Below are positions 1,452-55,442 of a stretch of DNA of 64,000 nucleotides, in pieces; the first letter of the stretch is position 1, and the number at the start of each line of letters is the position of its first letter. The position numbers and the translations under genes were made by a program. The stretch spans positions 13,321-77,320 of the forward strand of contig JBBTUN010000002.1 of the NCBI GenBank assembly GCA_038063735.1, read 5' to 3'. Under the pieces are notes generated by a model. It made no database searches and was not told the origin of the DNA. It was given only the letters and a program-made list of their open reading frames with translations. The stretch is from Patescibacteria group bacterium. Lineage in GTDB: Bacteria; Patescibacteriota; Microgenomatia; Curtissbacterales; GWA2-41-24.

Positions 1452-1676
1452 ATGGAAAGAAGATTGCCAAAACCTGTCGAGGTGGGGAGGTTTGCCAGAA
1501 AACAAGCTACCAGTATTTCGGTGGTGGTTGGAAGTAGTGGGTTGGTTACGACTACATTTATGTCGGGACGAGTAGACACTTTGATAGGTGTTGTGGGAGG
1601 AATGGCTGCAGGTTATGTTGCGCATCGGATTATTACGCACCCAAAAGGTAGTAGAAATGAACTTAAAGATAAATAA
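1452..1676 (+). CDS. hypothetical small membrane protein
   Basis: 74-aa ORF with a hydrophobic stretch; overlaps the chosen sufC start by about 20 nt. Confidence 0.25.
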   Translation: MERRLPKPVEVGRFARKQATSISVVVGSSGLVTTTFMSGRVDTLIGVVGGMAAGYVAHRIITHPKGSRNELKDK

Positions 1677-2547
1677 ATTAAAGGTTAAAGTTGGGGGCCC
1701 ATCCTTCGCTTCATCCTACGCTAAGGCTACGGATGACAAGAAAGCTATGGAGGGCAAGGAAATTTTAAAAGGTGTTGACCTGGAGGTTGGTGCCGGTGAA
1801 GTCCATGTGGTGATGGGGCCGAATGGGAGTGGAAAAAGTACGCTGGCGCAGGTGATAGCAGGGAACCCAATGTACAAAGTTCACAGTGGACAGATCACGG
1901 TTGACGGTAAAAACATAATTAAATTAAGTCCGGATAAAAGGGCGAAGCTGGGGATATTTTTGGGTTTCCAGAACCCGATTGAAATTCCGGGCGTTAGTGT
2001 TTTCAACGTAATTAGGAAGGCAAGTCAATCTCAAGTGGGTCCTGCCAGTAGTTTCCCTCCCGTCAGTGCTCAATTGAAAACAAAATCCGTGCGTAATGGT
2101 AAATCGAGTGTCAATCTGCGCGCTGCCGGAAGCCCTTCCACTACTGTCACCCAGTTTCGTCAAGATCTTTTAAAATATGCATCTTCTTTAAAATTATCAT
2201 CCGATCATCTTTCCAGATCTTTTAATGAAGGGTTTTCCGGTGGGGAAAAAAAGAGAAATGAGATTTTGCAGATGCTGGCACTGTCGCCAAAACTTGTAAT
2301 TTTGGATGAGATAGATAGTGGGTTGGATGTGGATGGATTGAAGCTGGTAGCCGGTGCTATCAAGAAATTCTCAATTCTCAATTCTCAATCCTCAATTATC
2401 CTTATTACCCACTATGCCCGCATCCTTAAATACATCAAGGCAGATTTTGTGCATGTGATGACTGATGGGAAAATTGTTAAATCCGGAAAGCAAAAATTGG
2501 CAACGGAAATTGAGGAGAAAGGATACCAGTTCGTTAATAGTTTATAG
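1657..2547 (+). CDS. sufC: Fe-S cluster assembly ATPase SufC, with two in-frame repeat insertions
   Basis: Walker A GPNGSGKST, ABC signature FSGGEKKR, Walker B LVILDEIDSGLD and C-terminal IILITHYARIL...GYQF, typical of SufC. Start chosen at MNLKINKLKV (SufC-like MLxIxNLHV); the ORF-track start at 1588 looks like an upstream extension. Extra segments at about 1692-1739 and 2030-2160 are absent from canonical SufC. Confidence 0.85.
   Translation: MNLKINKLKVKVGGPSFASSYAKATDDKKAMEGKEILKGVDLEVGAGEVHVVMGPNGSGKSTLAQVIAGNPMYKVHSGQITVDGKNIIKLSPDKRAKLGIFLGFQNPIEIPGVSVFNVIRKASQSQVGPASSFPPVSAQLKTKSVRNGKSSVNLRAAGSPSTTVTQFRQDLLKYASSLKLSSDHLSRSFNEGFSGGEKKRNEILQMLALSPKLVILDEIDSGLDVDGLKLVAGAIKKFSILNSQSSIILITHYARILKYIKADFVHVMTDGKIVKSGKQKLATEIEEKGYQFVNSL
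1692..1739 (+). repeat. family-B in-frame element (encodes GGPSFASSYAKATDDKK) in sufC
   Basis: gggggcccatccttcgcttcatcctacgctaaggctacggatgacaag; related to 7667-7702 and 55275-55350. Confidence 0.6.
2113..2155 (+). repeat. family-A in-frame element (encodes NLRAAGSPSTTVTQ) in sufC
   Basis: aatctgcgcgctgccggaagcccttccactactgtcacccag; about 80% identical to 50494-50540. Confidence 0.7.
2375..2400 (+). repeat. CTCAATT/CTCAATC tandem tract in sufC (encodes FSILNSQSSII)
   Basis: ctcaattctcaattctcaatcctcaatt. Confidence 0.6.
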
Positions 2548-4487: not shown

Positions 4488-4907
4488 ATGGAAACTGAAA
4501 GACCAAGAAACGTAATAAATTTTAAAGAATCAGTTAGAATTCTCAAAAAGCGGCAGGTGAGAAAGAGGGTTAACTTTGATTTACATAGGACGGTGAAATT
4601 ACATGCGTTTTTAAGTGATCGATTGGGTGATGAACATGAACTGACTAGCACCTTCATGCCCCCAAAGTCACTAAAACCAAGATTTGATTTGCTAGTCACG
4701 AGACGAGGAATAGATCAGATTGCCAGGATGTTACTTGATGAACAAGATGCCAATGTCAGGAAATCTGTTGGAGAATCTTTGATCGGGTTGGATTATGCAT
4801 TTACCGGGGTCAGTGGATATCCGTGGGGTAATGTTGCATACGAAGCATTTATTGCAGAACACTATGAAGATATTAGTAGGCAAGAGGCTTTAGATATTGT
4901 TCAATGA
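4488..4907 (+). CDS. hypothetical protein (cassette 1 between sufB and sufD)
   Basis: 139-aa ORF starting 1 nt after the sufB stop; followed by repeat copy R1. Confidence 0.45.
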   Translation: METERPRNVINFKESVRILKKRQVRKRVNFDLHRTVKLHAFLSDRLGDEHELTSTFMPPKSLKPRFDLLVTRRGIDQIARMLLDEQDANVRKSVGESLIGLDYAFTGVSGYPWGNVAYEAFIAEHYEDISRQEALDIVQ

Positions 4908-4950
4908 ACCATATTATTTTACAAAAAGACGAAAAGAGGTTAAATGGGGG
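4903..4950 (+). repeat. direct repeat R1 (copy of the sufD 5' leader)
   Basis: caATGAACCATATTATTTTACAAAAAGACGAAAAGAGGTTaaatggggg; 40/40 identical to R3 over the core. Confidence 0.8.
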
Positions 4951-5363
4951 CTGAAGATTTGATCGCTCAAGCGGAGAGAGCTGCATACCATGAAGACTAC
5001 CGGAATTTCCGAGTTCGATTAGAGACTGAAACGTTTTTGGCAGTACATGGTTTATTAAAAGTCGATAAAATTTTAGAAGAAACTGATCTTCATAACAGAC
5101 AATTGTCTTTAGGAGAAGGACTTTTTACTATGCTGGCAGACAGGTTTAGAGACGCAATGCGCAAGGCGGAAGATCATGGTACGGAAACAATTGAAGTCGA
5201 TTTAAGCTACAGGGAATTGAATACGTTAGGAGATGTAGCAGTAGTCAAGGGAAATGCTGCTTTGGCACCTTATGTCTTAAACTTGAATGGGGCGTTTGTT
5301 GCTGCGGGTGGGCGCGATAATCAAAGACTGAGAGCGTATTTTGAAATGCTTACAGGGATATGA
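4944..5363 (+). CDS. hypothetical protein (cassette 2)
   Basis: 139-aa ORF; its start ATGGGGG lies immediately after repeat copy R1, which carries the RBS AAGAGG. Confidence 0.45.
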   Translation: MGAEDLIAQAERAAYHEDYRNFRVRLETETFLAVHGLLKVDKILEETDLHNRQLSLGEGLFTMLADRFRDAMRKAEDHGTETIEVDLSYRELNTLGDVAVVKGNAALAPYVLNLNGAFVAAGGRDNQRLRAYFEMLTGI

Positions 5364-5390
5364 ACCAGATTATTTTACAAAAAGACGGAC
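5361..5390 (+). repeat. direct repeat R2 (degenerate copy)
   Basis: tgaaccagattattttacaaaaagacggac. Confidence 0.7.
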
Positions 5391-5429
5391 TTAAATTCGG
5401 GTCTTTGGCTCGGAGGGGAGGATGGTAGG

Positions 5430-5990
5430 ATGAACGAGATTTTAGCGACCGCTGACTTTACAGACGAGGTTTTTGATGATGTTTATTTAAATTATTTATC
5501 GGATGCGGCGATTGCACATTTGGTGTTTGGTGTCGAAAGCGTATTAAGGTTAAATCAAGAAGCAGAGCCTAGGCTTGATTTTAACTTAAAACCAGCTCAT
5601 CCACTATTTGAGTATGACATTATGAGTAAATCTAGGCCGGATTGGCAGGATTGGAAACAAGTGCTTTTGCATCACGAAAGTTATAGTCAAATTTCCAAGT
5701 CGATGGAAGAAACCATTGGTTCTCCACCATATGCTTTTGGTTATTTAAAAGGAAAATTGCTTTTGTTAACTGCGAAAGATGCGGATACGATTAAATATGG
5801 CACGAGTTTATTTTGGGCATACTTAGATGGTGATTGTGAAGTTTCGGAAGACGGGGAATATATAAAAAGACTGATGCAACTATCGAGGGGAGTTTCTCCG
5901 GAATTTCATTATAGGCATGATATTCCTGTAGAAGACAAACAAGGTGGGGGAAAGTGGAGATCATTACTAAGAAGGATCAAAGGTAGCTAA
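5430..5990 (+). CDS. hypothetical protein (cassette 3)
   Basis: 186-aa ORF, RBS ggaggggaggatggtaggATG; followed by repeat copy R3. Confidence 0.45.
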   Translation: MNEILATADFTDEVFDDVYLNYLSDAAIAHLVFGVESVLRLNQEAEPRLDFNLKPAHPLFEYDIMSKSRPDWQDWKQVLLHHESYSQISKSMEETIGSPPYAFGYLKGKLLLLTAKDADTIKYGTSLFWAYLDGDCEVSEDGEYIKRLMQLSRGVSPEFHYRHDIPVEDKQGGGKWRSLLRRIKGS

Positions 5991-6044
5991 TCAATGAACC
6001 ATATTATTTTACAAAAAGACGAAAAGAGGTTGATTGGGATAATG
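5991..6044 (+). repeat. direct repeat R3 (sufD 5' leader)
   Basis: caatgaaccatattattttacaaaaagacgaaaagaggttgattgggataATG. Confidence 0.8.
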
Positions 6045-6614
6045 CTAGGAGACGATAAACCCGGTCATCCTGAACTTGGTTCAGAATCTAGATCCCGAAA
6101 CCCTTCGACTTCGCTCAGGGCGAGCAAGTTCGGGATGACAGAAGGGCGATTGGATGTTGTTCTTGCCGGAGAAAATTCGGAAATTGAGGTTGTAGGATTA
6201 CTAATGGCCAAAGGCGAAAGCCAAACGGCGCTGGAAGTTTACATAACCCACGTGGGGGAAAACACGAAATCAAAGGTTAATGTTAGGGCGGTTTTGCGGG
6301 GAAAATCAACGTTTGCATTTCGGGGGAATGTCAAAATAGAAAAAGGTGCAAAGGGTGCGGATGCATATTTGCGGAGTGATGCGCTTTTGTTTGACGATGC
6401 CAAAATGGGCGACGATACGCCGGCACTGGAGATTTTAGAGAGGGATGTAAAAGCCGGGCATGCGGCGACGATTGGAAAAGTGGATGAGCAAATGTTGTTT
6501 TATTTAATGAGCAGGGGAATTACAAGGAAACAAGCGGAAAAGCTGTTAATTCAGGGATTTGTGGAGCTAATACGATCAAAGCTTAACGACGAACGACTAA
6601 GGACAAAAGCATGA
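6042..6614 (+). CDS. sufD: SufD-like protein, short form (C-terminal SufBD domain only)
   Basis: C-terminal ...[36 protein letters not shown] matches the SufB/SufD C-terminus. Start placed at the ATG following GAGG in the repeat leader; the ORF track starts at 5994 inside the repeat. Carries an in-frame family-C element at 6065-6140. Confidence 0.6.
   Translation: MLGDDKPGHPELGSESRSRNPSTSLRASKFGMTEGRLDVVLAGENSEIEVVGLLMAKGESQTALEVYITHVGENTKSKVNVRAVLRGKSTFAFRGNVKIEKGAKGADAYLRSDALLFDDAKMGDDTPALEILERDVKAGHAATIGKVDEQMLFYLMSRGITRKQAEKLLIQGFVELIRSKLNDERLRTKA
6065..6140 (+). repeat. family-C double-hairpin element with a nested family-B-like core, in-frame in sufD
   Basis: catcctgaacttggttcagaatctagatcccgaaac[ccttcgacttcgctcagggcgagc]aagttcgggatgac; compare 9021-9075. 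Confidence 0.6.
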
Positions 6615-6979
6615 GCGGGAAAGGATATTTTAGATTTGAAAAACTTGATGTTTGGATTGATGCAAGACAGTTTGTATCTTTAATATACAAAGTCACAGAA
6701 GATTTCCCTGCAAAGGAGAGATTCGGATTAATCGATCAGATTAGAAGAGCAGCAGTTTCGATTGCTTTAAACATTGCGGAAGGTTCGACTAAAAATTCTG
6801 ACCCGGATTTTAGAAGGTTCTTGAGAATGTCTCAAGGTTCTGTGAATGAAGTTGTTACAGCACTTTATATTGCTTTGGATCAAAAGTTTATTAAAGAGGG
6901 AAAATTTGATGAACTATATGAATTTACATTAAGGTTAAATGCAAGGCTAAATGCACTAATAAAAAGCATTAGTCATTAG
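6611..6979 (+). CDS. four-helix-bundle protein (23S rRNA intervening-sequence protein family)
   Basis: FEKLDVW..A..F...IYK.T..FP..E.FGL..QIRRAA.SI..NIAEG is the signature of this family. Confidence 0.7.
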   Translation: MSGKGYFRFEKLDVWIDARQFVSLIYKVTEDFPAKERFGLIDQIRRAAVSIALNIAEGSTKNSDPDFRRFLRMSQGSVNEVVTALYIALDQKFIKEGKFDELYEFTLRLNARLNALIKSISH

Positions 6980-7328: not shown

Positions 7329-7633
7329 TGGATAGAGAGCGTTTTTCAAGAGGAAAACTTAAAAAAGATTTTGTAAATATTGTGTCTGGTAGACTCAAAA
7401 GATTATTTTCCATGGAGGAATGGGATAGTATCATGGGTCATTTGAAAACCGATCGTGCTGTAGTTGTGCGTTTCCATTCAGATTCGGAAAAGAATGTCAT
7501 GTGGGGTTTATATTCGTCAAAGGGCAGGACTGAGCGTTTTTCCCAGCAATATGTCCTGGGAGGCGACCGACCAGAAGAGTTTGGAAATTATCCGGTTATT
7601 AATAAGGAATTGGGAGTTGTAGATGAATCGTAG
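7328..7633 (+). CDS. hypothetical protein
   Basis: 101-aa ORF packed between the Rieske gene and sufS. Confidence 0.35.
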   Translation: MDRERFSRGKLKKDFVNIVSGRLKRLFSMEEWDSIMGHLKTDRAVVVRFHSDSEKNVMWGLYSSKGRTERFSQQYVLGGDRPEEFGNYPVINKELGVVDES

Positions 7634-8876
7634 GCAAGATTTTCCAATATTGAATCGGAAAATAAATGGTCCCTCCTATGCTAAAGCTTCGGAGGGCAAG
7701 AAACCTTTGGTTTATCTGGACAGTGCGGCGACGTCTCAGAAGCCAAAGCAAGTTCTTAACGCAATTTCCGACTATTACCAAAAACATAACGCCAATGTGC
7801 ATCGGGGAATCCACACTTTATCTGTGGAGGCAACGGAAATGTACGAAGCGGCACGGAAGAAGGTAGCTGATTTTGTTGGTGTAAAAGATCCGGCGGAGAT
7901 TATTTTTGTGAGAAATGCTACCGAGGCGATCAATCTGGTTGCTTATTCTTGGGGTCGGTTCAACATATCAAAAGGTGATGAAATTGTAGTGACTGTCGCA
8001 GAGCACCACAGCAATTTTGTGCCGTGGCAGCAACTGGCAATCCAGAAGCAGGCAAAATTTAAAGTAGTTCCCATCAATAAAGAAACCGGTGAGATTGATC
8101 TTAAGGCGCTTGGTAAATTACTGACAAAGAAAACGAAAATAGTCGCTTTTGCCCATGTTTCTAATGTTTTAGGGACGATTAACGATGTTTTGCATTTGTC
8201 GTTAGTCGTTCGTCGTTTGGCGCCACAAGCAATAGTACTTGTGGATGGTGCCCAAGCTGTTCCGCATATGCCTGTTGATATTTCTGAAATCGGTTGCGAT
8301 TTTTATGTTTTTACCGGACACAAAATGCTGGGGCCAACCGGAATTGGGGTTTTGTGGGGAAGGCGGGAGCTTTTGGAGACGATGACACCATTTTTATTTG
8401 GGGGAGAAATGATTTCCAAAGTTTCTCTAGAAAAATCCACTTGGAACGAATTGCCGTGGAAGTTTGAAGCGGGAACCCCGGATATTGCGGGGGCGATTGG
8501 ATTAGGAGCGGCGGTTGATTATCTTGATAAAATTGGCATGGATAAGGTTCGGGAGCACGATGTAGAACTAACAAAATATGCGATTGAAAAGTTATCAAAA
8601 ATTGATGGTGTGATTATATATGGACCGAAAGATGTCAAAAAGCGCAGCGGAGTGGTTGCATTTAATGTTGGGTCAATACACGCCCATGATGTGGCATCGA
8701 TTTTGGATAGTGAGGGGATTGCTGTCCGGTCCGGTCACCACTGCGCCCAACCACTCATGGATTTTTTGGGAGTTTCGTCTGTTGCGAGAGCCAGTTTTTA
8801 TCTATATAACTCCATTGAAGAAGTGGATAGGTTAGTGGAGGGTGTTTTGAAAGTTAAGGAGGTTTTTAAAATATAA
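7623..8876 (+). CDS. sufS: cysteine desulfurase SufS (class V aminotransferase)
   Basis: Motifs ...VYLDSAATSQKP, the PLP-lysine region FYVFTGHKMLGPTGIGVLWG and the active-site region RSGHHCAQPLM are typical of group II SufS. N-terminal GPSYAKASEGKK is an inserted repeat-encoded segment. Confidence 0.9.
   Translation: MNRRQDFPILNRKINGPSYAKASEGKKPLVYLDSAATSQKPKQVLNAISDYYQKHNANVHRGIHTLSVEATEMYEAARKKVADFVGVKDPAEIIFVRNATEAINLVAYSWGRFNISKGDEIVVTVAEHHSNFVPWQQLAIQKQAKFKVVPINKETGEIDLKALGKLLTKKTKIVAFAHVSNVLGTINDVLHLSLVVRRLAPQAIVLVDGAQAVPHMPVDISEIGCDFYVFTGHKMLGPTGIGVLWGRRELLETMTPFLFGGEMISKVSLEKSTWNELPWKFEAGTPDIAGAIGLGAAVDYLDKIGMDKVREHDVELTKYAIEKLSKIDGVIIYGPKDVKKRSGVVAFNVGSIHAHDVASILDSEGIAVRSGHHCAQPLMDFLGVSSVARASFYLYNSIEEVDRLVEGVLKVKEVFKI
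7667..7702 (+). repeat. family-B in-frame element (encodes GPSYAKASEGKK) in sufS
   Basis: ggtccctcctatgctaaagcttcggagggcaagaaa; CCCTCC...GGAGGG arms. Confidence 0.55.
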
Positions 8877-9311
8877 GTGGATCTTTACCGCGAGGAAATT
8901 TTGGAACATTGGCAAAACCCGTTAAATTTTGGGGAAATGAAAAATGCCGATTTAGTGATTGAACAGGTTAACCCGCTTTGCGGAGACGAAGTGACGTTTT
9001 ACTTTAGGTTTTCGATCAGTCATCCTGAACTCGATTCAGGATCTAAAAAGATTCCGAAACAAGTTCGGAATGACGAGTGGCAAATAGCGAATGGTCAGTG
9101 GCGAATAAGTGAAGTATCGTTTACCGGTTCTGGCTGTGCTATATCTATCGCTTCGGCTTCGATTTTGTCGGAAAATATCAAGAATAAGAAAATCTCTACG
9201 TTATCCAAAATAACGGGTGAGGATGTTTTGAAATTGATTGGCGGACCAGTGGCACCGGCAAGACTTAAGTGTGCTTTTTTGTCGCTTGAGGTGATTCGCA
9301 AAATTCGATAA
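8877..9311 (+). CDS. sufU: SufU/IscU-like Fe-S scaffold protein (GTG start)
   Basis: NP.N.G.......V...NPLCGDEV and GSGCAIS..SAS with a C-terminal ...KCA.L motif are characteristic of SufU; contains the in-frame family-C element. Confidence 0.75.
   Translation: MDLYREEILEHWQNPLNFGEMKNADLVIEQVNPLCGDEVTFYFRFSISHPELDSGSKKIPKQVRNDEWQIANGQWRISEVSFTGSGCAISIASASILSENIKNKKISTLSKITGEDVLKLIGGPVAPARLKCAFLSLEVIRKIR
9021..9075 (+). repeat. family-C double-hairpin element in-frame in sufU
   Basis: cATCCTGAActcgaTTCAGGATctaaaaagaTTCCGAAacaagTTCGGAAtgac: two perfect 8-bp/7-bp hairpins. Confidence 0.65.
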
Positions 9312-25295: not shown

Positions 25296-26918
25296 TTATT
25301 TGTTTTTGCGGGTCCTGCCACGCTTTTCCCCCGTCCGACGTCCTCGCTTTGAGTTTGAATTTGGTAATGATGTTTTCTTTTCGCTTGCTGCGGGCGCTCG
25401 ACGGGGTCCCCCAAGCGTGTCACCCGCGTCTGGGTTTGTTGAGGTAGTTTTTCCTGTCACTAATTTTTCCAGTTGGCCTTTAACAAAATCGTCTATTTCT
25501 TTTTTATCTTCCAAATAGTCTTTTAGCTTTTTGTTTGCTTCAAACAGTGCGAGAATTTTTTCTTCCTGTTTTGCCACATCTTCTATCGGGACGCTGTCGA
25601 GATGCCCATTGGTGACTGCCCACAGTATGACTACCTGAGCAGTAACGTCCATGGGTTTTAATTGCGGTTGTTTAAGAACCTCGACGATTCTCCGGCCACG
25701 TTCGAGGCGAATTCTGGTACTTTCATCCAGGTCCGACCCAAATTGGGCAAATGCTGCCAGAGATCTGTATTGAGATAAATCCAGCCTTAGGGTTCCGGCA
25801 ACTTGTTTCATCATTTTTGTTTGAGCTGCTCCACCGACACGCGAAACTGATATTCCAGGATTTACAGCGGGGCGGATGCCAGAATTAAAAAGATCTGCTT
25901 CCAGAAAGATTTGACCATCCGTTATTGAAATAACATTGGTTGGGATGTAAGCAGACACATCTCCGGCCTGGGTTTCGATAATGGGTAGGGCAGTCAGCGA
26001 TCCACCGCCGTATTTTTCGTCCATACGGGCTGCCCGTTCCAGGAGCCTCGAGTGAAGATAAAAAATATCTCCGGGGTAAGCTTCACGACCGGAAGGTCTT
26101 TTCAAAAGAAGAGAAAGTTGACGGTATGCCCAGGCGTGTTTGGATAAGTCGTCATAAATTACCAGTGCGTCCTTTCCCTGGTCCATAAAATATTCGCCCA
26201 TTGCACAACCTGTGTATGGAGCAACATACTGCATAGAAGCGGAGTCTGCGGCAGAGGCAGCGACTATTATCGTGTGATCGAGTGCTTTGTGTTTTTCGAG
26301 TGTTGCAACAACTTGGGCGATTTTACTGGTTTTCTGGCCAATTGCTACATAGATACAAATGACACCTTTACCTTTTTGGTTAATTATGGTGTCGAGTGTA
26401 ATTGCTGTTTTTCCGAGTCCCCTGTCTCCGATAATTAGCTCCCTTTGTCCGCGTCCAATTGGTATCATGGAATCAATTGCTTTAAGGCCCGTCTGTAGGG
26501 GAGTGTTAACAGATTTTCTGTAGATTACACCAGAGGCTATTTTTTCAACAGGATAAGCTTTTTTGGCCTTTATCGCACCTTTGTTGTCGATCGGATTTCC
26601 TAGTGCATTGATCACCCGACCAATTAATTCTTCGCCAACGGGGACTTCCAGAATCCTGCCGGTTGTTTGGCACTCGTCACCTTCTTTAAGTTGTGTCCAG
26701 TCTCCGAAGATAATCACTCCGACCGAATCTTCTTCGAGATTTAAGGCCAGGCCGGTGATGTCGTGTGGGAATTTAATAAGTTCGGATGCGGCTACATCGG
26801 AGAGACCGGCAACTCTGGCAACACCGTCACCGATTTCCAAAATTGTCCCGACATTTTTCGGAGCTTGTGAGAATTTTGACTTTTCTATTTGTTTTTCTAT
26901 TTCTTCTACAATACTCAT
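25296..26918 (-). CDS. atpA: ATP synthase F1 alpha subunit with repeat-encoded C-terminal extension
   Basis: [10 protein letters not shown]-loop and alpha-subunit motifs; about 35 extra C-terminal residues encoded by the family-A element at 25390-25430. Confidence 0.95.
25390..25430 (+). repeat. family-A-like element forming the atpA C-terminal extension (opposite orientation to the gene)
   Basis: gcgggcgctcgacggggtcccccaagcgtgtcacccgcgtc aligns with gcgcgctgtcggtagcccttccaatcgtgccacccgcgaa. Confidence 0.45.
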
Positions 26919-30716: not shown

Positions 30717-30745
30717 CTGCTCGCTCATGTAAACTTAAAGAACAA
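30717..30745 (-). repeat. 29-nt element shared with 52035-52063 (opposite strand)
   Basis: ctgctcgctcatgtaaacttaaagaacaa is the exact reverse complement of ttgttctttaagtttacatgagcgagcag at 52035-52063. Confidence 0.7.
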
Positions 30746-33771: not shown

Positions 33772-34296
33772 ATGAATGAAGTAATGTTCGGTGAACGCGC
33801 GACTGTTGAGGCAGTAAAACAGGCTTCCAAAGATTATTTAAGACAAGCAAAAGCAAGAAGAGTGGCTGCGCATGTGGCGCGGGAAAAGGCCAACGTTGGT
33901 TTTCGGATGCTTCGTCACGGGAAATTTGTAAGGATTATACAGGAGGATGCGGCATCGTATTGGCATGGGGCCGCTGCTGAAAAAGTTGATGAAATAGTGT
34001 CTGGAGCAACTTCTCTTAGTTATTCTGAAGAACCAGAGGAAGACAGATTCGTTAAATGGGATTTGGAAATTGTTTCTGGTGGTAAAAAAATAAAAATGGG
34101 TGCTCGTCATTTTCTGGGAGGGCCTAGTTATGCAAGTGGATATATCGACCCGTTTGAGCATAAACCGTATGTTTTATATGAGGGAAAACCGGCTGGAGGC
34201 GAGGAGCTTTATACGACTACAGGAAGATTTAAAGATTTTATTGACAACCTGAAAAGCCAGGGTATTATTGGCACAAAAGTCGCAGTTAAGGCTTAA
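33772..34296 (+). CDS. hypothetical protein
   Basis: 174-aa ORF after the tRNAs; contains GGPSYASGY, resembling the repeat-encoded motif. Confidence 0.4.
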   Translation: MNEVMFGERATVEAVKQASKDYLRQAKARRVAAHVAREKANVGFRMLRHGKFVRIIQEDAASYWHGAAAEKVDEIVSGATSLSYSEEPEEDRFVKWDLEIVSGGKKIKMGARHFLGGPSYASGYIDPFEHKPYVLYEGKPAGGEELYTTTGRFKDFIDNLKSQGIIGTKVAVKA

Positions 34297-38588: not shown

Positions 38589-39605
38589 TTGGGCATGAGT
38601 TCTCCAAAAATTCTTCTGTTAATTGATGGGAATAATCTTTTCCATCGTGCGTATCATGCCTTGCCTGCATTAACTGACAAAACGGGTGAGAATGCCAACG
38701 CCGTTTTTGGATTTTCTAATATGCTGATTAGGGCAGTAAAGGAGGTCGAACCTACTTATATCGCCTGTGCATTTGATACCAAGGCGCCAACATTCCGCCA
38801 TGTAGAATTTGAGGCTTATAAAGCGCAAAGAAAAGCCCCGCCGGAGGATTTATATCCACAGCTGCCAAAAGTTAAGGCAGTATTGGATGCTTTTGGTGTT
38901 AAATATTTTGAAAAAGCGGGTTATGAAGCAGACGACATACTCGCGACTGTAGCGTCGCGAGCAGTTAATAGTTCACAGTTAATAGTTCACGGTAAGAAAA
39001 ATGAGAAAACTGTGAACCCCTCTGGAATCGGGGTAAACCGTGAACCGTCTACTGTTGACCAAGTGGTGATTCTTTCCGGCGACCGTGACCTACTTCAACT
39101 CGTTGATGGAAATATCAAGGTTCAGGCGCCCGGGTGGAACCTGAGCTCAACCACATTATATGGTTCAAAAGAGGTGGAAGAAAAGTTTGGAATCACACCC
39201 CTTCAAATGGTCGATTATAAGGCGATGATCGGAGACCCGAGTGATAACATTCCGGGGATTGCCGGCATTGGACCAAAAACGGCCTCGGCATTACTTCAAA
39301 AATACAAAACACTTGAGGGAATTTATGACAATATTGATGAAATTTCGGGAACAACAAAAGATAAGTTGGAAAAGGATAAAGAAATTGCCCTGGCTGCTAA
39401 AAAACTTGTTAAGCTGGATTGTAATGTAGATATTAGCTTTAAGCTGTCAGAGCTTAGATTTAATCCGGATTGGGAAAAAGTAATAAAAGAATTTGAAGGC
39501 TTGGGGTTTAAAAGTATTGTTGCTAAATTGCAAGGTAAAGCAGTGGGCAATGCAAAATCTGTACATGTTGCTGATAATAATAAAGACCAGCTTGAGTTAA
39601 TTTAA
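38589..39605 (+). CDS. 5'-3' exonuclease (DNA polymerase I N-terminal/FEN-like domain) with in-frame repeat insertion
   Basis: ILLLIDGNNLFHRAYHA..., acidic catalytic residues and the H3TH region GIPGIAGIGPKTA; about 30 extra residues encoded by the family-D element at 38962-39056. Confidence 0.8.
   Translation: MGMSSPKILLLIDGNNLFHRAYHALPALTDKTGENANAVFGFSNMLIRAVKEVEPTYIACAFDTKAPTFRHVEFEAYKAQRKAPPEDLYPQLPKVKAVLDAFGVKYFEKAGYEADDILATVASRAVNSSQLIVHGKKNEKTVNPSGIGVNREPSTVDQVVILSGDRDLLQLVDGNIKVQAPGWNLSSTTLYGSKEVEEKFGITPLQMVDYKAMIGDPSDNIPGIAGIGPKTASALLQKYKTLEGIYDNIDEISGTTKDKLEKDKEIALAAKKLVKLDCNVDISFKLSELRFNPDWEKVIKEFEGLGFKSIVAKLQGKAVGNAKSVHVADNNKDQLELI
38962..39056 (+). repeat. family-D nested-hairpin element in-frame in the 5'-3' exonuclease gene
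   Basis: GTTCACAGTTaatagttcacggtaagaaaaatgagaaAACTGTGAACccctctggaatcggggtaaaccgtgaaccgtc: 10-bp and 8-bp inverted repeats. Confidence 0.65.
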
Positions 39606-49179: not shown

Positions 49180-49580
49180 AGAGTGATAGTGAGAGAGAGT
49201 TAGAGAGTAAAAGTGTCAGAACTAAGGGTTATCATAAGTTGATTTTGTGGCAGAAGGCAAGGGAATTTTTAAAGTTGGTGTACAAGCATTCAGAAAAGTT
49301 TCCTAAAAGTGAAGAATATGGTCTAAAGAGTCAGCTAAGGAGAGCGACAGTTTCAGTACTTTTAAACATAGTAGAGGGATATCGGAGAAATTCTACAAAA
49401 GAATTTATCAGGTTTTTGAATATTTCTGGTGCCTCTTTAAGCGAGGTAGAAGCTTGTATTGAGATAGCCATCGACCTTGGGTATTTTACTCAAACGGAAT
49501 ATAAAATTCTTGAAGAAAGGAGAGTGGAAATAGAAGTTATTTTATTCTCTTTTGAGAAATCTCTAAGAAAAAAACTATAA
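49176..49580 (+). CDS. four-helix-bundle protein (23S rRNA intervening-sequence protein family)
   Basis: ...GYHKLILWQKAREF...YKHSEKFPKSEEYGLKSQLRRATVSVLLNIVEGY, same family as 6611-6979. Confidence 0.7.
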   Translation: MKSDSERELESKSVRTKGYHKLILWQKAREFLKLVYKHSEKFPKSEEYGLKSQLRRATVSVLLNIVEGYRRNSTKEFIRFLNISGASLSEVEACIEIAIDLGYFTQTEYKILEERRVEIEVILFSFEKSLRKKL

Positions 49581-49593
49581 CTCTATTACTCTT

Positions 49594-51507
49594 ATGCTCT
49601 TTGCAACTTTATCGAAATATTACGAAAAGTTGGAGTCAACGAGTAAACGTTTGGAGCTTGTTGATATTTTATCCAAACTTTTTGGAGAATCGGACAGTGC
49701 GGAAATTGGCAAGATTTGTTATTTGTTGCAGGGAAGAGTTGCGCCGTTTTATATGCCTGTTGAAATGGGAATGGCCGAATCTATGGTCGCGCAGGCAATT
49801 GCCAAGGCGTATGGCCCCACTTCGCCAAGGCTTCGAGGGGTAAACATTACAAAAGATGAAGTTATTAAGCTTTATCGTAAGTTGGGGAATATGGGGCTAG
49901 CGGCACAAGAGTTAAGCAATAAGCAAAAAGCAAAAAGTAATAAGTTGTCAGTAAGCGATGTATTTGAGGAGCTTTTAAAGATTGCAAATACTGGAGGAGA
50001 AGGGTCGGTAGAGCAAAAGATAACAACCCTGGCAAACATTTTGAAAGATTTGGATTCTGTTTCCGTTAAACATGTGGTAAATATTCCGTTGGGAACGTTG
50101 AGGTTGGGAATTGGTGACCCGACGGTTATGGACGCACTTTCCATTGCCAAAACGGGAGACAAAAAACTGCGGCCGGTAATCGAAGATGCTTATAACAAAA
50201 CCAGCGATCTTGGATACGTTGCCGAAGAATTTTTTAAGTATGGAGAAAAGGGTTTGGCGACTATTAAATTAATCGTTGGAAAACCGGTTAGGCCGGCTTT
50301 GGCCGAGCGGATGCCAAATGCAGACGAAGTTGTTAAGCGAATGGGCGACAAATTTGCGGCAGAACCCAAGTTTGACGGATTTAGGGTGCAAATTCATTTG
50401 GACCGGCGCGGTATTGCGGGTCCTGTCACGATTTTCCCTCCCGCCAGTGCTCGATCAGGAAAGAAAACAGATCGTGATCAGTCGGAAAATGTTGATCTGC
50501 GCGCTGTCGGTAGCCCTTCCAATCGTGCCACCCGCGAAGTCGAGATTTTTTCCCGAAACCTGGAAGATATGACACATTCTTTTCCGGATTTAGCGCAAGG
50601 GGTTTTAAAAGAAGTCAAGGCAAAATCTGTGATTATGGAGGGGGAGGCAATTGCTTATAACCCGCAGACGGAGGAATTTTTACCGTTTCAGGAAACAACA
50701 AAGAGAAGGCGCAAATATAAGATCGAAGAAACTGCAAAAGCACTGCCACTTGTCTGTTTTGCCTTTGATATTTTGTATTTGGACGGGCAGGATATAACGG
50801 GAAAGCCGGAGGTTGAGCGCAGAAAACTGTTGGAAAAAATTGTTTCGAAAGACCTGCCTGCCGGCAGGCAGGGTAACCAAACGATTAGAATTGCCGAACA
50901 AAGGGTAATTTCTACTGCCAAAGAAATCCAGGAATTTTTTAATGAGGCAATTTCGGATGGGCTCGAAGGTTTGATGATTAAAAAACTGGATGCGCCATAT
51001 AAAGCAGGCGGGCGGGGTTTCCATTGGATTAAGTTTAAGCGGGCTTCCAGCGGAGATTTGGCAGATACGGTGGATTGTGTTTTGTTGGGGATTTATAGTG
51101 GCAAAGGCAAAAGGACGGAATTTGGGGATGGTGGGCTTTTGGTTGGGATTTATAACGATAAAGATGATGTTTTTGAGACGATTTCGCGGGTTGGGACGGG
51201 TTTGACGGATGAAGAGTTTAGAAAAGTCCATGAAATTGGCAAAAAGTTAAGGCTTGGTCATAAACCGGCAAGAGTAAGGTCTAAAATTGAACCGAGTTAT
51301 TGGGTAGAGCCGAAAGAAGTTTTGGAAATTTACGCCGACGAAATTACCAAATCTCCGATTCATACGGCTGGAGAAGAAGATGGAATTGGGTATGCGTTAA
51401 GATTTCCGAGATTAGTTAAATTTAGAGAGGCAGACAAAAGGGCTGAAGATGCAACTACGGTTGAGGAGATTAAAAAATTGTATAAAAATCAGTATGGCAA
51501 GAAGTAG
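49594..51507 (+). CDS. ATP-dependent DNA ligase, with in-frame repeat insertion
   Basis: Adenylation motif I AEPKFDGFRVQIH (K.DG.R), ...EGLMIKK.... and ...GIY..KG; about 40 extra residues at 50440-50560 encoded by the family-A element. Confidence 0.8.
   Translation: MLFATLSKYYEKLESTSKRLELVDILSKLFGESDSAEIGKICYLLQGRVAPFYMPVEMGMAESMVAQAIAKAYGPTSPRLRGVNITKDEVIKLYRKLGNMGLAAQELSNKQKAKSNKLSVSDVFEELLKIANTGGEGSVEQKITTLANILKDLDSVSVKHVVNIPLGTLRLGIGDPTVMDALSIAKTGDKKLRPVIEDAYNKTSDLGYVAEEFFKYGEKGLATIKLIVGKPVRPALAERMPNADEVVKRMGDKFAAEPKFDGFRVQIHLDRRGIAGPVTIFPPASARSGKKTDRDQSENVDLRAVGSPSNRATREVEIFSRNLEDMTHSFPDLAQGVLKEVKAKSVIMEGEAIAYNPQTEEFLPFQETTKRRRKYKIEETAKALPLVCFAFDILYLDGQDITGKPEVERRKLLEKIVSKDLPAGRQGNQTIRIAEQRVISTAKEIQEFFNEAISDGLEGLMIKKLDAPYKAGGRGFHWIKFKRASSGDLADTVDCVLLGIYSGKGKRTEFGDGGLLVGIYNDKDDVFETISRVGTGLTDEEFRKVHEIGKKLRLGHKPARVRSKIEPSYWVEPKEVLEIYADEITKSPIHTAGEEDGIGYALRFPRLVKFREADKRAEDATTVEEIKKLYKNQYGKK
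49921..49944 (+). repeat. AAGCAAAA tandem units in-frame in the ligase gene (encodes NKQKAKSNK)
   Basis: aagcaaaaagcaaaaagtaataag. Confidence 0.5.
50494..50540 (+). repeat. family-A in-frame element (encodes DLRAVGSPSNRATRE) in the ligase gene
   Basis: gatctgcgcgctgtcggtagcccttccaatcgtgccacccgcgaagt. Confidence 0.7.
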
Positions 51508-51867: not shown

Positions 51868-52034
51868 GTGCAGATTATATTCTTGGCTATAGTATTTTTC
51901 AATTTAGCCCCTCGATGCTTCGGGCAACAGGAAACCTTAAACTAGAAACTTCACTGCGTTTTAACTAAACTATAATTGTCATGCTGAACTTGTTTCAGCA
52001 TCTATAAACTTCCGAGGGATAAGAGCCCTCGGTA

Positions 52035-52063
52035 TTGTTCTTTAAGTTTACATGAGCGAGCAG
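52035..52063 (+). repeat. 29-nt element shared with 30717-30745, embedded in hairpins
   Basis: ttgttctttaagtttacatgagcgagcag; flanked by CTTCCGAG...CTCGGAAG and CCGAGGGataagagCCCTCGG stems. Confidence 0.7.
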
Positions 52064-52148: not shown

Positions 52149-52175
52149 AGATCCTGAATTAAATTCAGGATGACG
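52149..52175 (+). repeat. family-C first hairpin, intergenic copy
   Basis: gATCCTGAATtaaATTCAGGATgac. Confidence 0.5.
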
Positions 52176-55013: not shown

Positions 55014-55442
55014 GTGATAAGCAAGAAGCAACCCATTCGAGGGGCTCAGGGCAAGCAAGCAACAAGACATCAAAATAAAAACTTTAGGGAAGAGGTTTTT
55101 AAGCAAGTTAAGAAAATTCCCAAGGGAAAGGTGACAACGTATGGAGAAATCGCGACTAAACTGGGAAACCCAAGATTGTCTCGACAAGTTGGTTGGGCAT
55201 TACACCAAAATAAATCGGCTGATGTTCCGTGTCACAGGGTTGTTGATAGAAATGGCAGACTAGCCCCTAATTTTGGCGGCCCTTCGCTTGAAAGCTTCGG
55301 ACGCCGAGCATTTTCGTCCAGAGGACGACCAGCCTTTGGCTGGGATGGGGCAAGTGAGCAGAAAAGAAGACTAGCGGTTGAGGGAGTAAAGTTTGTTGAC
55401 GAGATGCATGTAAATCTGAATACCTCTTTGTGGCAAAAGTAG
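55014..55442 (+). CDS. methylated-DNA-protein-cysteine methyltransferase family protein (DNA-binding domain) with in-frame repeat insertion
   Basis: ...YGEIA...G.P...R.VG.A....N......PCHRVV matches the MGMT C-terminal domain; about 25 extra residues (PSLESFGRRAFSSRGRPAF...) encoded by the family-B element. Confidence 0.55.
   Translation: MISKKQPIRGAQGKQATRHQNKNFREEVFKQVKKIPKGKVTTYGEIATKLGNPRLSRQVGWALHQNKSADVPCHRVVDRNGRLAPNFGGPSLESFGRRAFSSRGRPAFGWDGASEQKRRLAVEGVKFVDEMHVNLNTSLWQK
55275..55350 (+). repeat. family-B in-frame element in the MGMT-like gene
   Basis: ggcggcccttcgcttgaaagcttcggacgccgagcattttcgtccagaggacgaccagcctttggctgggatgggg; shares GG.GGCCC.TCGCTT and aaagcttcgga with the sufC and sufS copies. 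Confidence 0.55.

What the first reader, a model, noticed from the sequence alone, without database searches (positions are those of the whole stretch)
1692..1739. Family B: GGPS(F/Y)A-encoding element in sufC, sufS, the MGMT-like gene and possibly the 174-aa hypothetical gene
sufC carries 1692-1739 (GGPSFASSYAKATDDKK) and sufS carries 7667-7702 (NGPSYAKASEGKK). Their DNA is related (tatgctaaagcttcggagggcaag versus tacgctaaggctacggatgacaag), both have inverted arms (CCCTCC...GGAGGG; CATCC...GGATG), and both interrupt N-terminal regions that are contiguous in canonical SufC and SufS. The MGMT-like gene carries a longer variant at 55275-55350 (GGPSLESFGRRAFSSRGRPAF) that shares the GG.GGCCC.TCGCTT and aaagcttcgga blocks. 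A GGPSYASGY stretch at 34125-34150 may be a decayed copy. sufC therefore carries two different element families at once.
Basis: seen in the sequence. Interest (0 to 1): 0.75.

Follow-up and report, generated by a model that had tools for sequence, protein, structure and literature searches.

The report
Thirty-base hairpin element inserted in genes
The "GGPS(F/Y)A" stretches in sufC, sufS and the MGMT-like gene are real copies of a tiny (30-base, 10-codon) hairpin-forming DNA repeat that has inserted precisely and in frame into housekeeping genes; almost the same sequence occurs in many bacterial phyla, and nothing is known about what moves it.

Summary
Family B is real. It is a discrete 30-nt unit, YCC TCC TWC GCY AAR GCT WCG GAG GRY AAR, which reads PSFAKASEGK in frame 0. 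Its edges are sharp. It forms a hairpin whose pairs covary independently across 123 copies.

The window (a Curtissbacteria-like Patescibacteria contig) holds these copies:
- sufS 7671-7700.
- sufC 1699-1758, which is two units, one nested in the other's apical loop.
- A 33-nt length variant in the MGMT-like gene (55275-55307).

The 174-aa gene's GGPSYASGY is not a copy.

Each canonical unit equals an exact 10-aa gap against solved homologues or empty orthologues. The window's nested sufC pair is +19 aa after later loss of one Lys codon. Orthologous sufC genes give two independent before/after pairs of a clean 30-nt nested insertion at GCY^AAR, with no target duplication. Host-gene junctions are Y^AAR, except the ligase site.

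The same 30-mer occurs in Patescibacteria, PVC, Bacteroidota, Proteobacteria, Cyanobacteria and phage-like contigs. It lies in genes (all frames, both strands) and between genes.

Best reading: a non-autonomous miniature mobile hairpin of the REP/RPE/SDR kind. The mobilising enzyme is not identified.

The parts
1657..2547 (+). Host gene sufC (Fe-S assembly ATPase).
   Evidence: phmmer against PDB SufC 2d2e/2d3w, E=7e-69. 120 homologues retrieved.
1699..1710 (+). Outer family-B unit in sufC, 5' part (CCATCCTTCGCT = PSFA): left stem arm up to the apical-loop Y.
   Evidence: It is identical to the 5' part of the single unit in the orthologue L157 and of the outer unit in L160.
1711..1740 (+). Inner family-B unit (TCATCCTACGCTAAGGCTACGGATGACAAG = SSYAKATDDK), inserted into the apical loop (GCT^AAA) of the outer unit. 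Its 6-bp stem TCATCC/GGATGA is perfect.
   Evidence: The covariance model scores it at 45.9 bits, E=1e-11. The DNA fold gives -4.1 kcal/mol, z=-3.05. L157 versus L160 shows the clean 30-nt insertion.
1741..1758 (+). Outer family-B unit in sufC, 3' part (AAAGCTATGGAGGGCAAG = KAMEGK). It is decayed: TCG GAT became ATG GAG. One adjacent host Lys codon has been lost, so the net insert is 19 aa rather than 20.
   Evidence: Seen in the DNA and protein comparison with L160/P0124 and L157/P0151.
7623..8876 (+). Host gene sufS (cysteine desulfurase).
   Evidence: phmmer against 5j8q, E=1e-144. The protein is 100% identical to P0001, 'cysteine desulfurase, Patescibacteria group bacterium'.
7671..7700 (+). 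Family-B unit in sufS (CCCTCCTATGCTAAAGCTTCGGAGGGCAAG = PSYAKASEGK), inserted at GGT^AAA.
   Evidence: The covariance model scores it at 48.4 bits, E=2e-12. It matches an exact 10-aa gap against 5j8q. The empty orthologous site in L123 reads AAT AAA AAG CCA. The filled orthologue L121 carries a different, compensated variant.
49594..51507 (+). Host gene: ATP-dependent DNA ligase.
   Evidence: phmmer against 2hiv, E=1e-114.
49815..49844 (+). Family-B unit in the ligase gene, read in frame +1 (CCCCACTTCGCCAAGGCTTCGAGGGGTAAA = PTSPRLRGVN). It is 26/30 identical to the consensus by my hand alignment and carries a T-A to C-G compensatory change in the stem.
   Evidence: The covariance model scores it at 25.1 bits, E=1.9e-5. 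It matches an exact 10-aa gap against 2hiv. The sequence was read. The same CCCCAC...AGGGGTAAA subtype is the outer unit in the sufS orthologue L162.
55014..55442 (+). Host gene: MGMT/Atl1-like alkyltransferase-like protein.
   Evidence: phmmer against 3gva, E=1e-10. The protein is 100% identical to P0241, 'MGMT family protein'.
55275..55307 (+). Length variant of family B ('B2', 33 nt; GGCGGCCCTTCGCTTGAAAGCTTCGGACGCCGA = GGPSLESFGRR). The inner stem is lengthened to GCTT-GA-AAGC. The outer stem is GGCGGCC/GGACGCC. The tail is mutated from CAAG to CGAG.
   Evidence: The model gives a local match CCTTCGCT..AGCTTCGG. Orthologues have either no insert or GGPSLKSFGRQ (+11 aa). The B2 core occurs in 18 metagenome contigs with the same outer-stem covariation and the same CAAG/TAAA tail.

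Best explanation
Family B is a miniature, non-autonomous mobile DNA element. It is a 30-nt (10-codon) imperfect hairpin with consensus YCC TCC TWC GCY AAR GCT WCG GAG GRY AAR.

Structure:
- A 6-bp stem.
- A 3x3 internal loop.
- A 3-bp inner stem, GCY/RGC, closing an AA loop.
- A 3' YAAR tail.

Shown:
- It is copied into new sites as a precise 30-nt block with no target-site duplication.
- It lands preferentially between Y and AAR. This holds both in host genes and in the apical loop of existing copies, which produces nested copies.

Inferred:
- In this gene-dense Curtissbacteria-like genome the surviving copies sit in frame. The length is a multiple of three, and four to six of the six frames are stop-free.
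- They lie in tolerant surface turns of housekeeping proteins, where they are probably translated as a 10-residue hydrophilic loop.
- The stem covariation reflects selection on the source copies for a structure needed for mobilisation, most likely a single-stranded DNA hairpin.
- If circularised, the unit would be a dumbbell with a YAAR loop at each end. That would explain why the tail Y and R covary.
- The enzyme would be a trans-acting single-strand nuclease/transferase of the HUH (IS200/IS605 or RAYT-like) kind, or a conserved host enzyme. No such gene was identified.
For: 1. Discrete unit. In 120 public-genome copies, information content drops to about 0 at position -4 and at +27. Positions left free in the search pattern are still 78-99% conserved.

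2. Structure. Across 123 copies 96.6% of cells are paired, against 88.4% in shuffles. There are 148 double-change cells against 55 in shuffles, reached by 0 of 500 shuffles. Pair states:
- (-3,22): CG 52, TA 57.
- (-1,20): CG 95, AT 11, GC 3.
- (2,17): CG 109, TA 6.
- (8,11): TA 65, CG 48.
These states are mixed independently of one another.

3. Insertion.
- Exact 10-aa gaps against solved SufS and ligase structures.
- Only 3 of 120 SufS orthologues carry an insert at site 1, and 20 of 120 SufC orthologues carry an insert at the site, most of them Family-B-like.
- The empty sufS site is seen in L123.

4. Mobility, from two independent before/after pairs in sufC:
- L157 holds a single unit. L160 holds the same unit with 30 nt inserted at GCT^AAA.
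- L158 holds a single unit of another variant. L159 holds that unit with a different 30-nt unit inserted at GCC^AAG.
- Further nests at the same position: L016, L048, L078, L086, L133 and L162.

5. Target. Three independent host-gene sites are Y^AAR: sufS site 1, sufS site 2 in L161, and sufC. AAR has a frequency of 6.8% per position in the window.

6. The signal is DNA, not peptide. Copies occur in all frames, on both strands and in about 40% non-ORF contexts. The ligase copy is in frame +1.

7. Length filter. The 32-nt variant is 33 nt when it lies inside genes.

8. Placement. In the AlphaFold2 model of SufC the insert lies in the beta1-beta2 turn, with pLDDT 55-67 against 93-98 in the core.

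9. Scatter. Filled and empty states are scattered on insert-masked similarity trees: at least 3 changes for SufS and at least 16 for SufC.
Against: - No transposase or other mobilising gene was found. About 40 window ORFs scanned in Pfam show no HUH, RAYT or IS protein. No protein family recurs within 1 kb of the 120 copies.
- No strain-level (>95% identity) filled/empty polymorphism could be shown. The nearest relatives are 79-87% identical on insert-masked columns.
- Repeated use of one site in SufC and SufS could reflect selection for permissive loops rather than targeting. Other repeat families occupy the same protein sites.
- In the pooled 120 copies the flanks have no strong consensus. 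AAR at +27 or +28 and YAAR at +27 are only 2-4 fold enriched. The ligase copy is not at Y^AAR.
- Near-identity of the 30-mer in many phyla is not explained by any known REP/RAYT biology.
- Translation of the insert is assumed, not shown.
Confidence: 0.7

Rival explanations
1. A structured RNA element with a local function, such as mRNA stabilisation, RNase processing, termination or translational pausing. It would be kept by selection at each locus. Its spread would be secondary.
For: - The hairpin shows real covariation.
- In Lentisphaeria loci L052, L068, L081 and L098 the unit starts at a tRNA CCA end, and its 3' half forms a long hairpin followed by a T-run, like a terminator.
- REPs are thought to act as RNA elements downstream of genes (PMC3733652).
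Against: - Copies lie on both strands relative to host ORFs, 44 sense and 27 antisense.
- Most orthologues lack them.
- An inner stem closing a 2-nt loop is implausible for RNA.
- Rfam gives no match at E<=1 over nine loci that carry copies.
- Nested copies disrupt the outer hairpin.
Confidence: 0.1
2. Templated insertion without a dedicated transposase. The 30-mer would be copied from another locus by polymerase template switching, by a reverse transcriptase (a diversity-generating retroelement or retron-like enzyme) or by repair synthesis. Loops of hairpins would be the preferred break or priming sites.
For: - No transposase was found.
- Insertion is clean and leaves no target duplication.
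- The window has two bAvd-like/23S_rRNA_IVP ORFs.
- Many non-Patescibacteria copies sit inside tandem heptamer tracts, which are slippage-prone.
Against: - Junctions keep both the element's AAR and the target's AAR. A microhomology-mediated switch would leave only one.
- The edges are identical in more than 120 copies from many phyla.
- No reverse transcriptase was seen in the window.
Confidence: 0.1
3. An ancient, non-mobile insertion inherited vertically. It would be repeatedly and precisely lost, and the internal doubling would come from local tandem duplication.
For: - Diverged forms at the SufC site, such as PASTKVTAGK and PSSTKVSADAKALADRSEDK, look old.
- The MGMT variant is shared by many orthologues.
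Against: - The same 30-mer lies at unrelated sites in unrelated genes and phyla.
- Inner and outer units of nests are different variants, each with its own self-consistent stem. The order is A-A'-B'-B, not a tandem A-B-A-B.
- Orthologous sufS copies in the window and L121 differ by two compensatory pairs.
- Precise loss of 30 nt many times over is unlikely.
Confidence: 0.04
4. A peptide module selected at the protein level: a functional PSFAKASEGK loop, for example a binding or modification site.
For: In Patescibacteria loci, by my tally of the per-locus output, frame 0 dominates (16 of 21 genic copies). Hosts are often aminoacyl-tRNA synthetases and Fe-S proteins.
Against: - About 40% of copies are not in ORFs, and the others use all frames and both strands.
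- Conservation and covariation are at the nucleotide level, including third codon positions.
- The ligase copy encodes PTSPRLRGVN.
- The frame-0 bias follows from insertion in front of in-frame Lys codons.
Confidence: 0.03
5. The inserts are not translated. They would be removed or skipped, for example by ribosomal bypassing as with the 27-55-nt 'byp' elements of Magnusiomyces mitochondria or T4 gene 60 (from memory), or by RNA-level excision.
For: They are short GC-rich hairpins inside essential genes. Nothing tested here shows translation directly.
Against: - Every genic copy is a multiple of three and stop-free.
- The 32-nt variant is found as 33 nt in genes.
- The TAA-containing frame is avoided by construction of the variants.
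- Decayed copies such as the sufC outer arm keep the frame.
- No matched take-off and landing codons are present.
Confidence: 0.03

Closest known systems
REP elements (GTAG- or CGTC-tagged repetitive extragenic palindromes; REPINs mobilised by RAYT HUH transposases). Sources: Di Nocera et al. 2013, PMC3733652; Bertels & Rainey 2011, PMC3116915.
   Same: - A 20-40-nt imperfect stem-loop with an unpaired tetranucleotide at one end and a short tail.
- Dispersed in many copies, with variants whose stems co-vary.
- Occasionally found inside genes in frame (O. terrae, R. conorii).
- CGTC REPs likewise have no known transposase.
   Different: - The end motif is YAAR (CAAG or TAAA), not GTAG or CGTC.
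- Copies are singletons or nested, not head-to-head dimers.
- All window copies are intragenic.
- The unit is exactly 30 nt.
- Essentially the same sequence is found in many phyla, whereas REP families are largely species- or genus-specific.
- No RAYT gene was seen.
Rickettsia palindromic elements (RPE-1 and others). Ogata et al. 2000, from memory; RPE-4 and RPE-6 are equated with CGTC REPs in PMC3733652.
   Same: Selfish palindromic DNA inserted in frame into conserved protein-coding genes. It adds a surface peptide segment without destroying function.
   Different: - From memory, RPE-1 is about 100-150 bp and confined to Rickettsia.
- Family B is 30 nt, spans many phyla and nests within itself.
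Small dispersed repeats (SDR, 21-27 nt) of Nostoc and other cyanobacteria. Elhai et al. 2008, Genome Res 18:1484. Recalled from memory; the paper was not readable here and is cited as ref 43 in PMC3116915.
   Same: - Mobile repeats shorter than any transposon or MITE.
- Hairpin-forming.
- Found nested within one another and embedded in tandem heptamer tracts.
- Mobilising mechanism unknown.
- Many non-Patescibacteria family-B copies also sit inside heptamer tracts.
   Different: - As I recall them, SDR families are cyanobacterial and mainly intergenic.
- Sequence relatedness to family B could not be checked.
- Family B is 30 nt, frequently genic, and present in at least nine named phylum-level groups.
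IS200/IS605-type single-strand transposition (HUH Y1 TnpA). This is a comparison of how it works, not a claim of membership.
   Same: - Insertion next to a short specific sequence with no target duplication.
- Recognition of an imperfect subterminal hairpin.
- A circular single-stranded intermediate would fit the YAAR covariation at the tail.
   Different: - Family B encodes nothing.
- It has one hairpin rather than distinct left and right ends.
- No TnpA was found.
- Target specificity is shown for only a handful of sites.
MITEs (miniature inverted-repeat transposable elements; review PMC10969869).
   Same: Short, non-coding, dispersed, and sometimes intragenic.
   Different: - From general knowledge, MITEs are usually longer than 50-100 bp, with terminal inverted repeats matching a parent IS and flanking target-site duplications.
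- Family B has neither.

Membership tests
REP / REPIN | Short (20-40 nt) imperfect palindrome able to form a stem-loop. | tested here: met
   The 30-nt unit has a 6-bp plus 3-bp stem with covariation and predicted folds.
REP / REPIN | Conserved GTAG or CGTC tetranucleotide at one end (PMC3733652). | tested here: not met
   The ends are YCC... and ...YAAR (CAAG 82, TAAA 23 of 120). No GTAG or CGTC is present.
REP / REPIN | Predominantly extragenic, and commonly arranged as inverted dimers. | tested here: not met
   All five window copies are intragenic, and they are singletons or nested. In 120 public copies about 40% are outside ORFs. Inverted partial pairs are seen only next to tRNAs in Lentisphaeria.
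REP / REPIN | A cognate RAYT (HUH Y1) gene flanked by the repeats. | tested here: inconclusive
   None was found among about 40 window ORFs. No gene family recurs near the 120 copies. Whole genomes could not be searched.
REP / REPIN | Tens to hundreds of copies per genome. | tested here: inconclusive
   There are 5 units in 64 kb of the window and 0-2 per 8-21 kb in related loci. No whole-genome count was possible.
Rickettsia palindromic elements | In-frame insertion into conserved ORFs with the reading frame kept. | tested here: met
   Seen in sufS, sufC, the ligase and the MGMT-like gene. Also seen in aminoacyl-tRNA synthetases, topoisomerase I and GatB in other genomes.
Rickettsia palindromic elements | Element of about 100-150 bp, restricted to Rickettsia. 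| tested here: not met
   The unit is 30 nt and is found in many phyla.
Cyanobacterial small dispersed repeats (SDR) | Sub-30-nt dispersed repeats that nest within each other and within heptamer tracts. | tested here: met
   Nested copies are shown. Heptamer-tract contexts include L011, L026, L089, L104 and L114. The unit is 30 nt, slightly above the 21-27 nt recalled for SDRs.
Cyanobacterial small dispersed repeats (SDR) | Sequence identity with one of SDR1-SDR8. | not testable with these tools
MITE | Terminal inverted repeats of a parent IS, plus a target-site duplication. | tested here: not met
   Flanks carry no duplication (information about 0). Before/after pairs show a clean 30-nt gain.
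IS200/IS605-like single-strand elements (mechanistic analogy) | Insertion adjacent to a specific short target without duplication. | tested here: inconclusive
   Y^AAR is found at 3 of 4 host-gene sites and at 8 or more nested sites. Enrichment in the pooled 120 flanks is only 2-4 fold.
IS200/IS605-like single-strand elements (mechanistic analogy) | Encodes or depends on a Y1 HUH transposase. | not tested
   No candidate enzyme was identified. This needs whole-genome search and biochemistry.

The most novel reading that the evidence does not exclude
Family B, with its 32/33-nt variant, is a pan-bacterial 'nano-transposon'. It would be a 30-nt single-stranded dumbbell, a stem capped by two YAAR loops, that carries no gene. 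It would be moved by a highly conserved host enzyme, or by a widely exchanged and still unrecognised one. It would insert at Y^AAR in single-stranded loops, including its own. This would be the smallest cross-phylum mobile DNA described. It would also be a general source of 10-residue loop insertions in essential proteins of small-genome bacteria.
Probability: 0.25. Interest if true: 0.9.

Novelty: new variant of a known kind. Interest (0 to 1): 0.7.

Why it matters
- The finding gives a sharply defined, very small (30 nt) element with direct before/after evidence of insertion, a defined structure and a candidate target (Y^AAR). It is present from Patescibacteria to Proteobacteria and in cultured isolates (Verrucomicrobiae DG1235, Aequorivita capsosiphonis DSM 23843).
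- That makes an old open question directly testable: what mobilises repeats too small to be MITEs? Examples are the cyanobacterial SDRs and the CGTC REPs that have no transposase. One can look for circular or free 30-mers, and test candidate nucleases on a synthetic oligonucleotide.
- It explains part of the length variability and the odd low-complexity loops in conserved proteins of Patescibacteria (SufS orthologues here range from 388 to 506 aa). This matters for annotation, alignment, phylogeny and structure prediction.
- Filled/empty sites could also serve as strain markers.

Tried and rejected
- **Chance similarity.** Rejected by shuffles, covariance-model E-values and conservation of unconstrained positions.
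- **The 174-aa gene as a decayed copy.** Rejected.
- **A known RNA family.** Rfam at E<=1 over nine copy-bearing loci gave only tRNA, rRNA and weak unrelated hits.
- **Link to neighbouring selfish ORFs (23S_rRNA_IVP, GIY-YIG).** Clustering all ORFs within 1 kb of the 120 copies gave no family shared by more than two loci.
- **A transposase in the window.** None was found in the Pfam scans.
- **Covariation as an artefact of subfamilies or GC content.** Pair states are mixed independently, and (-3,22) is if anything anti-correlated with (8,11). The same stem and loop variants occur in every phylum group.
- **Doubling in sufC by two local tandem duplications (my first reading).** Replaced by nested insertion after the DNA of L157 to L160 was compared.
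- **Topoisomerase-IA-like 'C at -4' cleavage rule.** It fits the tail CAAG and the loop CGCY^, but by my reading of the junction sequences it does not fit the host sites or the TAAA tails. Dropped.
- **IS91-type CTTG/GTTC target resemblance of the tail.** This is a recollection only. The tail is YAAR, not strictly CAAG. Not pursued.
- **Literature.** No paper contained the peptide or DNA strings. Searches for Patescibacteria or CPR plus in-frame or palindromic repeats found nothing specific. The Elhai 2008 paper could not be opened.
- **Strain-level polymorphism.** Not attempted by pattern scan, because the nearest relatives in 5.8 billion proteins are only about 80% identical.
Full report
**Source and setting.** The window has 41% GC. 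Its SufS, SufC and MGMT-like proteins are identical to proteins from a 'Patescibacteria group bacterium' MAG, on an 84-kb contig. Their closest named relatives are Candidatus Curtissbacteria. The suf region is syntenic with two related contigs, L121 and L123.

**Checking the observation.**
- The 24-mer shared by the sufC and sufS copies matches nowhere else in the window. None is expected from shuffles.
- Against solved structures, SufS has an exact 10-residue gap (PSYAKASEGK) relative to B. subtilis SufS.
- SufC aligns only from residue 29, after the insert, so its N-terminal strand is interrupted.
- Among 120 SufS homologues only three carry an insert at that site: the window, P0008 (PSFAKASEGK) and P0009 (a 20-aa form). 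The closest relatives, about 84-85% identical on insert-masked columns, lack it.
- Among 120 SufC homologues, 20 carry an insert of 9-20 aa at the site, most of them Family-B-like. The rest read V-G-x|K-E-I-L-K-G.
- The MGMT-like gene has a 21-aa insert where many orthologues read RLAPNF|AFDGA.
- The GGPSYASGY stretch of the 174-aa ORF fails every test. The covariance model gives no hit. There is no predicted fold. It lies ungapped in the best-conserved block of the only homologue found among 1.8 billion representatives.

- Aligned on the match, information content is near zero up to position -4 and again from +27.
- Between these limits, even positions left as N in the pattern are 78-99% conserved.
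- The unit is therefore exactly 30 nt: YCC TCC TWC GCY AAR GCT WCG GAG GRY AAR.

Six outer pairs and three inner pairs are complementary. Four of them vary by double changes:
- (-3,22): C-G 52, T-A 57.
- (-1,20): C-G 95, A-T 11, G-C 3.
- (2,17): C-G 109, T-A 6.
- (8,11): T-A 65, C-G 48.

The states of different pairs are combined freely, so neither subfamily linkage nor GC content explains them. On 123 sequences, 96.6% of cells pair against 88.4% in shuffles. There are 148 double-change cells against 55, reached by 0 of 500 shuffles. All slid controls collapse. The tail YAAR also shows Y/R covariation (C..G 82, T..A 23), which has no partner in the linear form.

**Copies in the window.** A covariance model built from these copies finds the following.
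- sufS at 7671-7700.
- The inner sufC unit at 1711-1740.
- A third locus at 49815-49844 (25 bits, E=2e-5).
- A local match in the MGMT insert.

The third locus lies in an ATP-dependent DNA ligase gene. It is read in frame +1 (PTSPRLRGVN) and again corresponds to an exact 10-residue gap against the S. solfataricus ligase 2hiv. By my hand alignment of the sequence read, it is 26/30 identical to the consensus, and one stem pair is changed T-A to C-G. The same subtype is the outer unit in a sufS orthologue (L162).

**The MGMT insert.**
- It is a 33-nt element, GGPSLESFGRR, at 55275-55307.
- It is followed, after one host codon, by a different 30-nt hairpin, FSSRGRPAFG, at 55311-55340. That hairpin occurs alone in orthologue P0283.
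- The 33-nt element has the family-B core with one extra T-A pair in the inner stem (GCTT-RA-AAGC).
- That core occurs in 18 metagenome contigs: MGMT genes, an Fmt-like gene and non-coding DNA.
- Those copies show the same outer-stem variants (CCCTCC/GGAGGG, TCCTCC/GGAGGA, CCATCC/GGATGG) and the same CAAG/TAAA tails.
- The basic variant is 32 nt. Inside genes it is 33 nt through an extra bulged base.
- The MGMT copy is therefore a genuine family member.

**Evidence of insertion events.** DNA of orthologous sufC genes is decisive.
- L157 has GAC|CCATCCTTCGCTAAAGCTTCGGATGGCAAG|AAAGAG.
- L160 has the same unit with TCATCCTATGCTAAAGCTACGGATGACAAG inserted exactly between GCT and AAA. The window is the L160 type, with a decayed outer right arm and one Lys codon lost (+19 aa rather than +20).
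- Independently, L158 has GGT|CCCTCCTTCGCCAAGGCTTCGGAGGGCAAG|AAAGAG.
- L159 has that unit with ACCTCTTTCGCTAAAGCTTCAGGGGTCAAG inserted between GCC and AAG.
- In each nest the inner and outer units have their own self-consistent stems. The gain is 30 nt, with no duplication and no loss.
- Nests at the same loop position also occur in L016, L048, L078, L086, L133 and L162. L045 holds a tandem pair.

Host-gene junctions with a known empty site:
- sufS site 1: GGT^AAR.
- sufC: GAC, GGT or GGC^AAA.
- sufS site 2 in L161: GTT^AAA.
- AAR occurs at 6.8% of window positions.
- The ligase site (G^CAT) is an exception.

Across the pooled 120 flanks, enrichment of (Y)AAR is only 2-4 fold. The orthologous sufS copies of the window and L121 differ by two compensatory pairs. 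Filled and empty states are scattered on insert-masked UPGMA trees. This fits repeated gain at the same site better than one gain followed by in-situ evolution. A short single-gene tree is weak evidence, though, and selection for permissive loops is an alternative. Other repeat families occupy the same protein sites.

**DNA element, not peptide.**
- In the 120 loci about 50 copies lie in no ORF of 120 aa or more.
- The others are in sense frames 0, +1 and +2 (27, 9, 8) and antisense frames (18, 8, 1).
- In Patescibacteria, by my tally of the output, frame 0 dominates. This follows if insertion occurs in front of in-frame Lys codons.
- By hand translation of the consensus, frames 0 and +1 and two antisense frames are stop-free. 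The remaining frame on each strand is stop-free only in the GCC-AAG loop variant.
- Hosts elsewhere, assigned by reading the translations, include IleRS, ValRS/LeuRS-type synthetases, ThrRS, GluRS (two copies), GatB, topoisomerase I and a P-type ATPase. One is an IleRS of a Cyclobacteriaceae genome.
- An AlphaFold2 model of the window SufC places the insert in the beta1-beta2 turn, with pLDDT 55-67. The core is at 93-98.

**Distribution.**
- The 120 loci come from the following groups:
  - Patescibacteria: Microgenomates, Parcubacteria, Saccharibacteria, Gracilibacteria, Peregrinibacteria and Doudnabacteria.
  - PVC groups.
  - Bacteroidota.
  - Alpha-, Gamma- and Deltaproteobacteria.
  - Cyanobacteria.
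  - Acidobacteria.
  - Cloacimonadota.
  - Neomarinimicrobiota.
  - Chloroflexi.
- Two are cultured isolates.
- The same stem, loop and tail variants recur in every group, at different frequencies.
- Fourteen true copies occur in IMG/VR viral contigs.
- Many non-Patescibacteria copies are embedded in tandem heptamer tracts.
- In Lentisphaeria some start at a tRNA CCA end and help form a terminator-like hairpin.

**Mechanism.**
- Shown: a discrete 30-nt hairpin unit, clean insertion without target duplication, preference for its own apical loop, and Y^AAR at several host sites.
- Inferred: a single-stranded DNA hairpin is the substrate. A circular form would be a dumbbell in which the main stem is capped by YAAR loops on both sides, which would account for the tail covariation. 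A trans-acting HUH-type enzyme or a conserved host enzyme does the cutting and joining.
- Not found: any such enzyme, either in about 40 window ORFs or as a recurrent neighbour of the 120 copies.
- Also assumed: the inserts are translated. This is supported only indirectly, by the multiple-of-three and stop-free rule, including the 32 to 33 nt adjustment of the variant inside genes.

**Comparison with known systems.**
- The closest described kinds are:
  - REPs, which are tagged stem-loops sometimes found inside genes (PMC3733652).
  - Rickettsia palindromic elements.
  - The cyanobacterial small dispersed repeats (from memory).
- Family B fails the defining GTAG/CGTC tag of REPs and the size and host range of RPEs.
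- It could not be compared in sequence with the SDRs.
- It lacks the inverted termini and target duplications of MITEs.
- Full-text searches for the peptide and DNA strings, and for Patescibacteria plus in-frame or palindromic repeats, found no description.
- I therefore rate it a new variant of a known kind.
- The near-identity across phyla and the self-nesting are the surprising features.

Noticed in passing
window 2036-2152 (sufC), 25306-25330, 45945-46061, 50417-50533 (ligase): A second, longer repeat family (GGGTCCTGYCAG...TTTCCCTCCC...GCCGGAAGCCCTTCC) is inserted in frame in sufC, the ligase gene and other genes. In the SufC model this segment has pLDDT below 50, and in both proteins it aligns to a gap against solved structures.
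   Followed up: partly
window 55311-55340: A different 30-nt hairpin family (TTTTCGTCCAGAGGACGACCAGCCTTTGGC = FSSRGRPAFG) lies one codon after the family-B variant in the MGMT-like gene. Orthologue P0283 has it alone (FSAKGGPASG). So other 10-codon hairpin families exist.
   Followed up: partly
window 6064-6090, 9019-9045, 9049-9074, 51978-52004, 52149-52174: Palindromes of the type GTCATCCTGAACTNNNTTCAGGATCT occur in both orientations. Some lie inside sufD (HPELGSESRS) and the NifU-like gene (HPELDSGSKK).
   Followed up: no
window 4901-4948, 5357-5404, 5991-6038: The first ~45 nt of sufD (ATGAACCATATTATTTTACAAAAAGACGAAAAGAGGTT) are repeated three times. The repeats bound three ORFs without Pfam hits (4488-4907, 4944-5363, 5430-5990) that sit between sufB and sufD. 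L121 has other small ORFs there, including a GIY-YIG gene. This looks like cassette insertion with duplication of the target gene's 5' end.
   Followed up: partly
window 6611-6979 and 49176-49580: Two 23S_rRNA_IVP / bAvd-like four-helix-bundle ORFs (E about 5e-35) lie between conserved genes, one directly upstream of the ligase gene. Relatives carry them at other positions (L121 8772-9137, L123 4179-4538).
   Followed up: partly
window 2360-2390, 2533-2600, 6571-6611, 8191-8217, 38961-38996, 40876-40956, 41076-41111, 43231-43258: Tandem heptamer or hexamer tracts (TCTCAAT, GTTCATA, CGATTAA, AACGACG, AAGCAA) occur inside and between genes. One example is SILNSQSS in sufC. Heptamer tracts also flank family-B copies in Bacteroidota and PVC genomes.
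   Followed up: no
window 55028-55059; SufS orthologues after residue ~149: Another short repeat (PIRGAQGK / PIRQAQGK; PSTSSGQ and LRQAQGK are, by my back-translation, the same DNA in other frames) also ends in GGRCAAG. Several families may therefore share a 3' terminal motif.
   Followed up: no
SufS, SufC and MGMT orthologue alignments: Curtissbacteria orthologues of these proteins vary by up to about 100 residues. About ten hot spots each hold short inserts from many repeat families, for example SSRQARTINYSSS..NREVS, RHSELDSESRSRNEFGMT and ALRLRSGQ.
   Followed up: partly
L052 7035-7110, L068 2605-2680, L081 5940-6015, L098 494-531: In Lentisphaeria/Victivallaceae the 30-mer begins at the CCA end of a tRNA gene. 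Its 3' half pairs with a downstream inverted copy, followed by a T-run, like an intrinsic terminator.
   Followed up: partly
window 30717-30745 and 52035-52063: A perfect 29-nt inverted repeat (CTGCTCGCTCATGTAAACTTAAAGAACAA) has its arms 21 kb apart.
   Followed up: no
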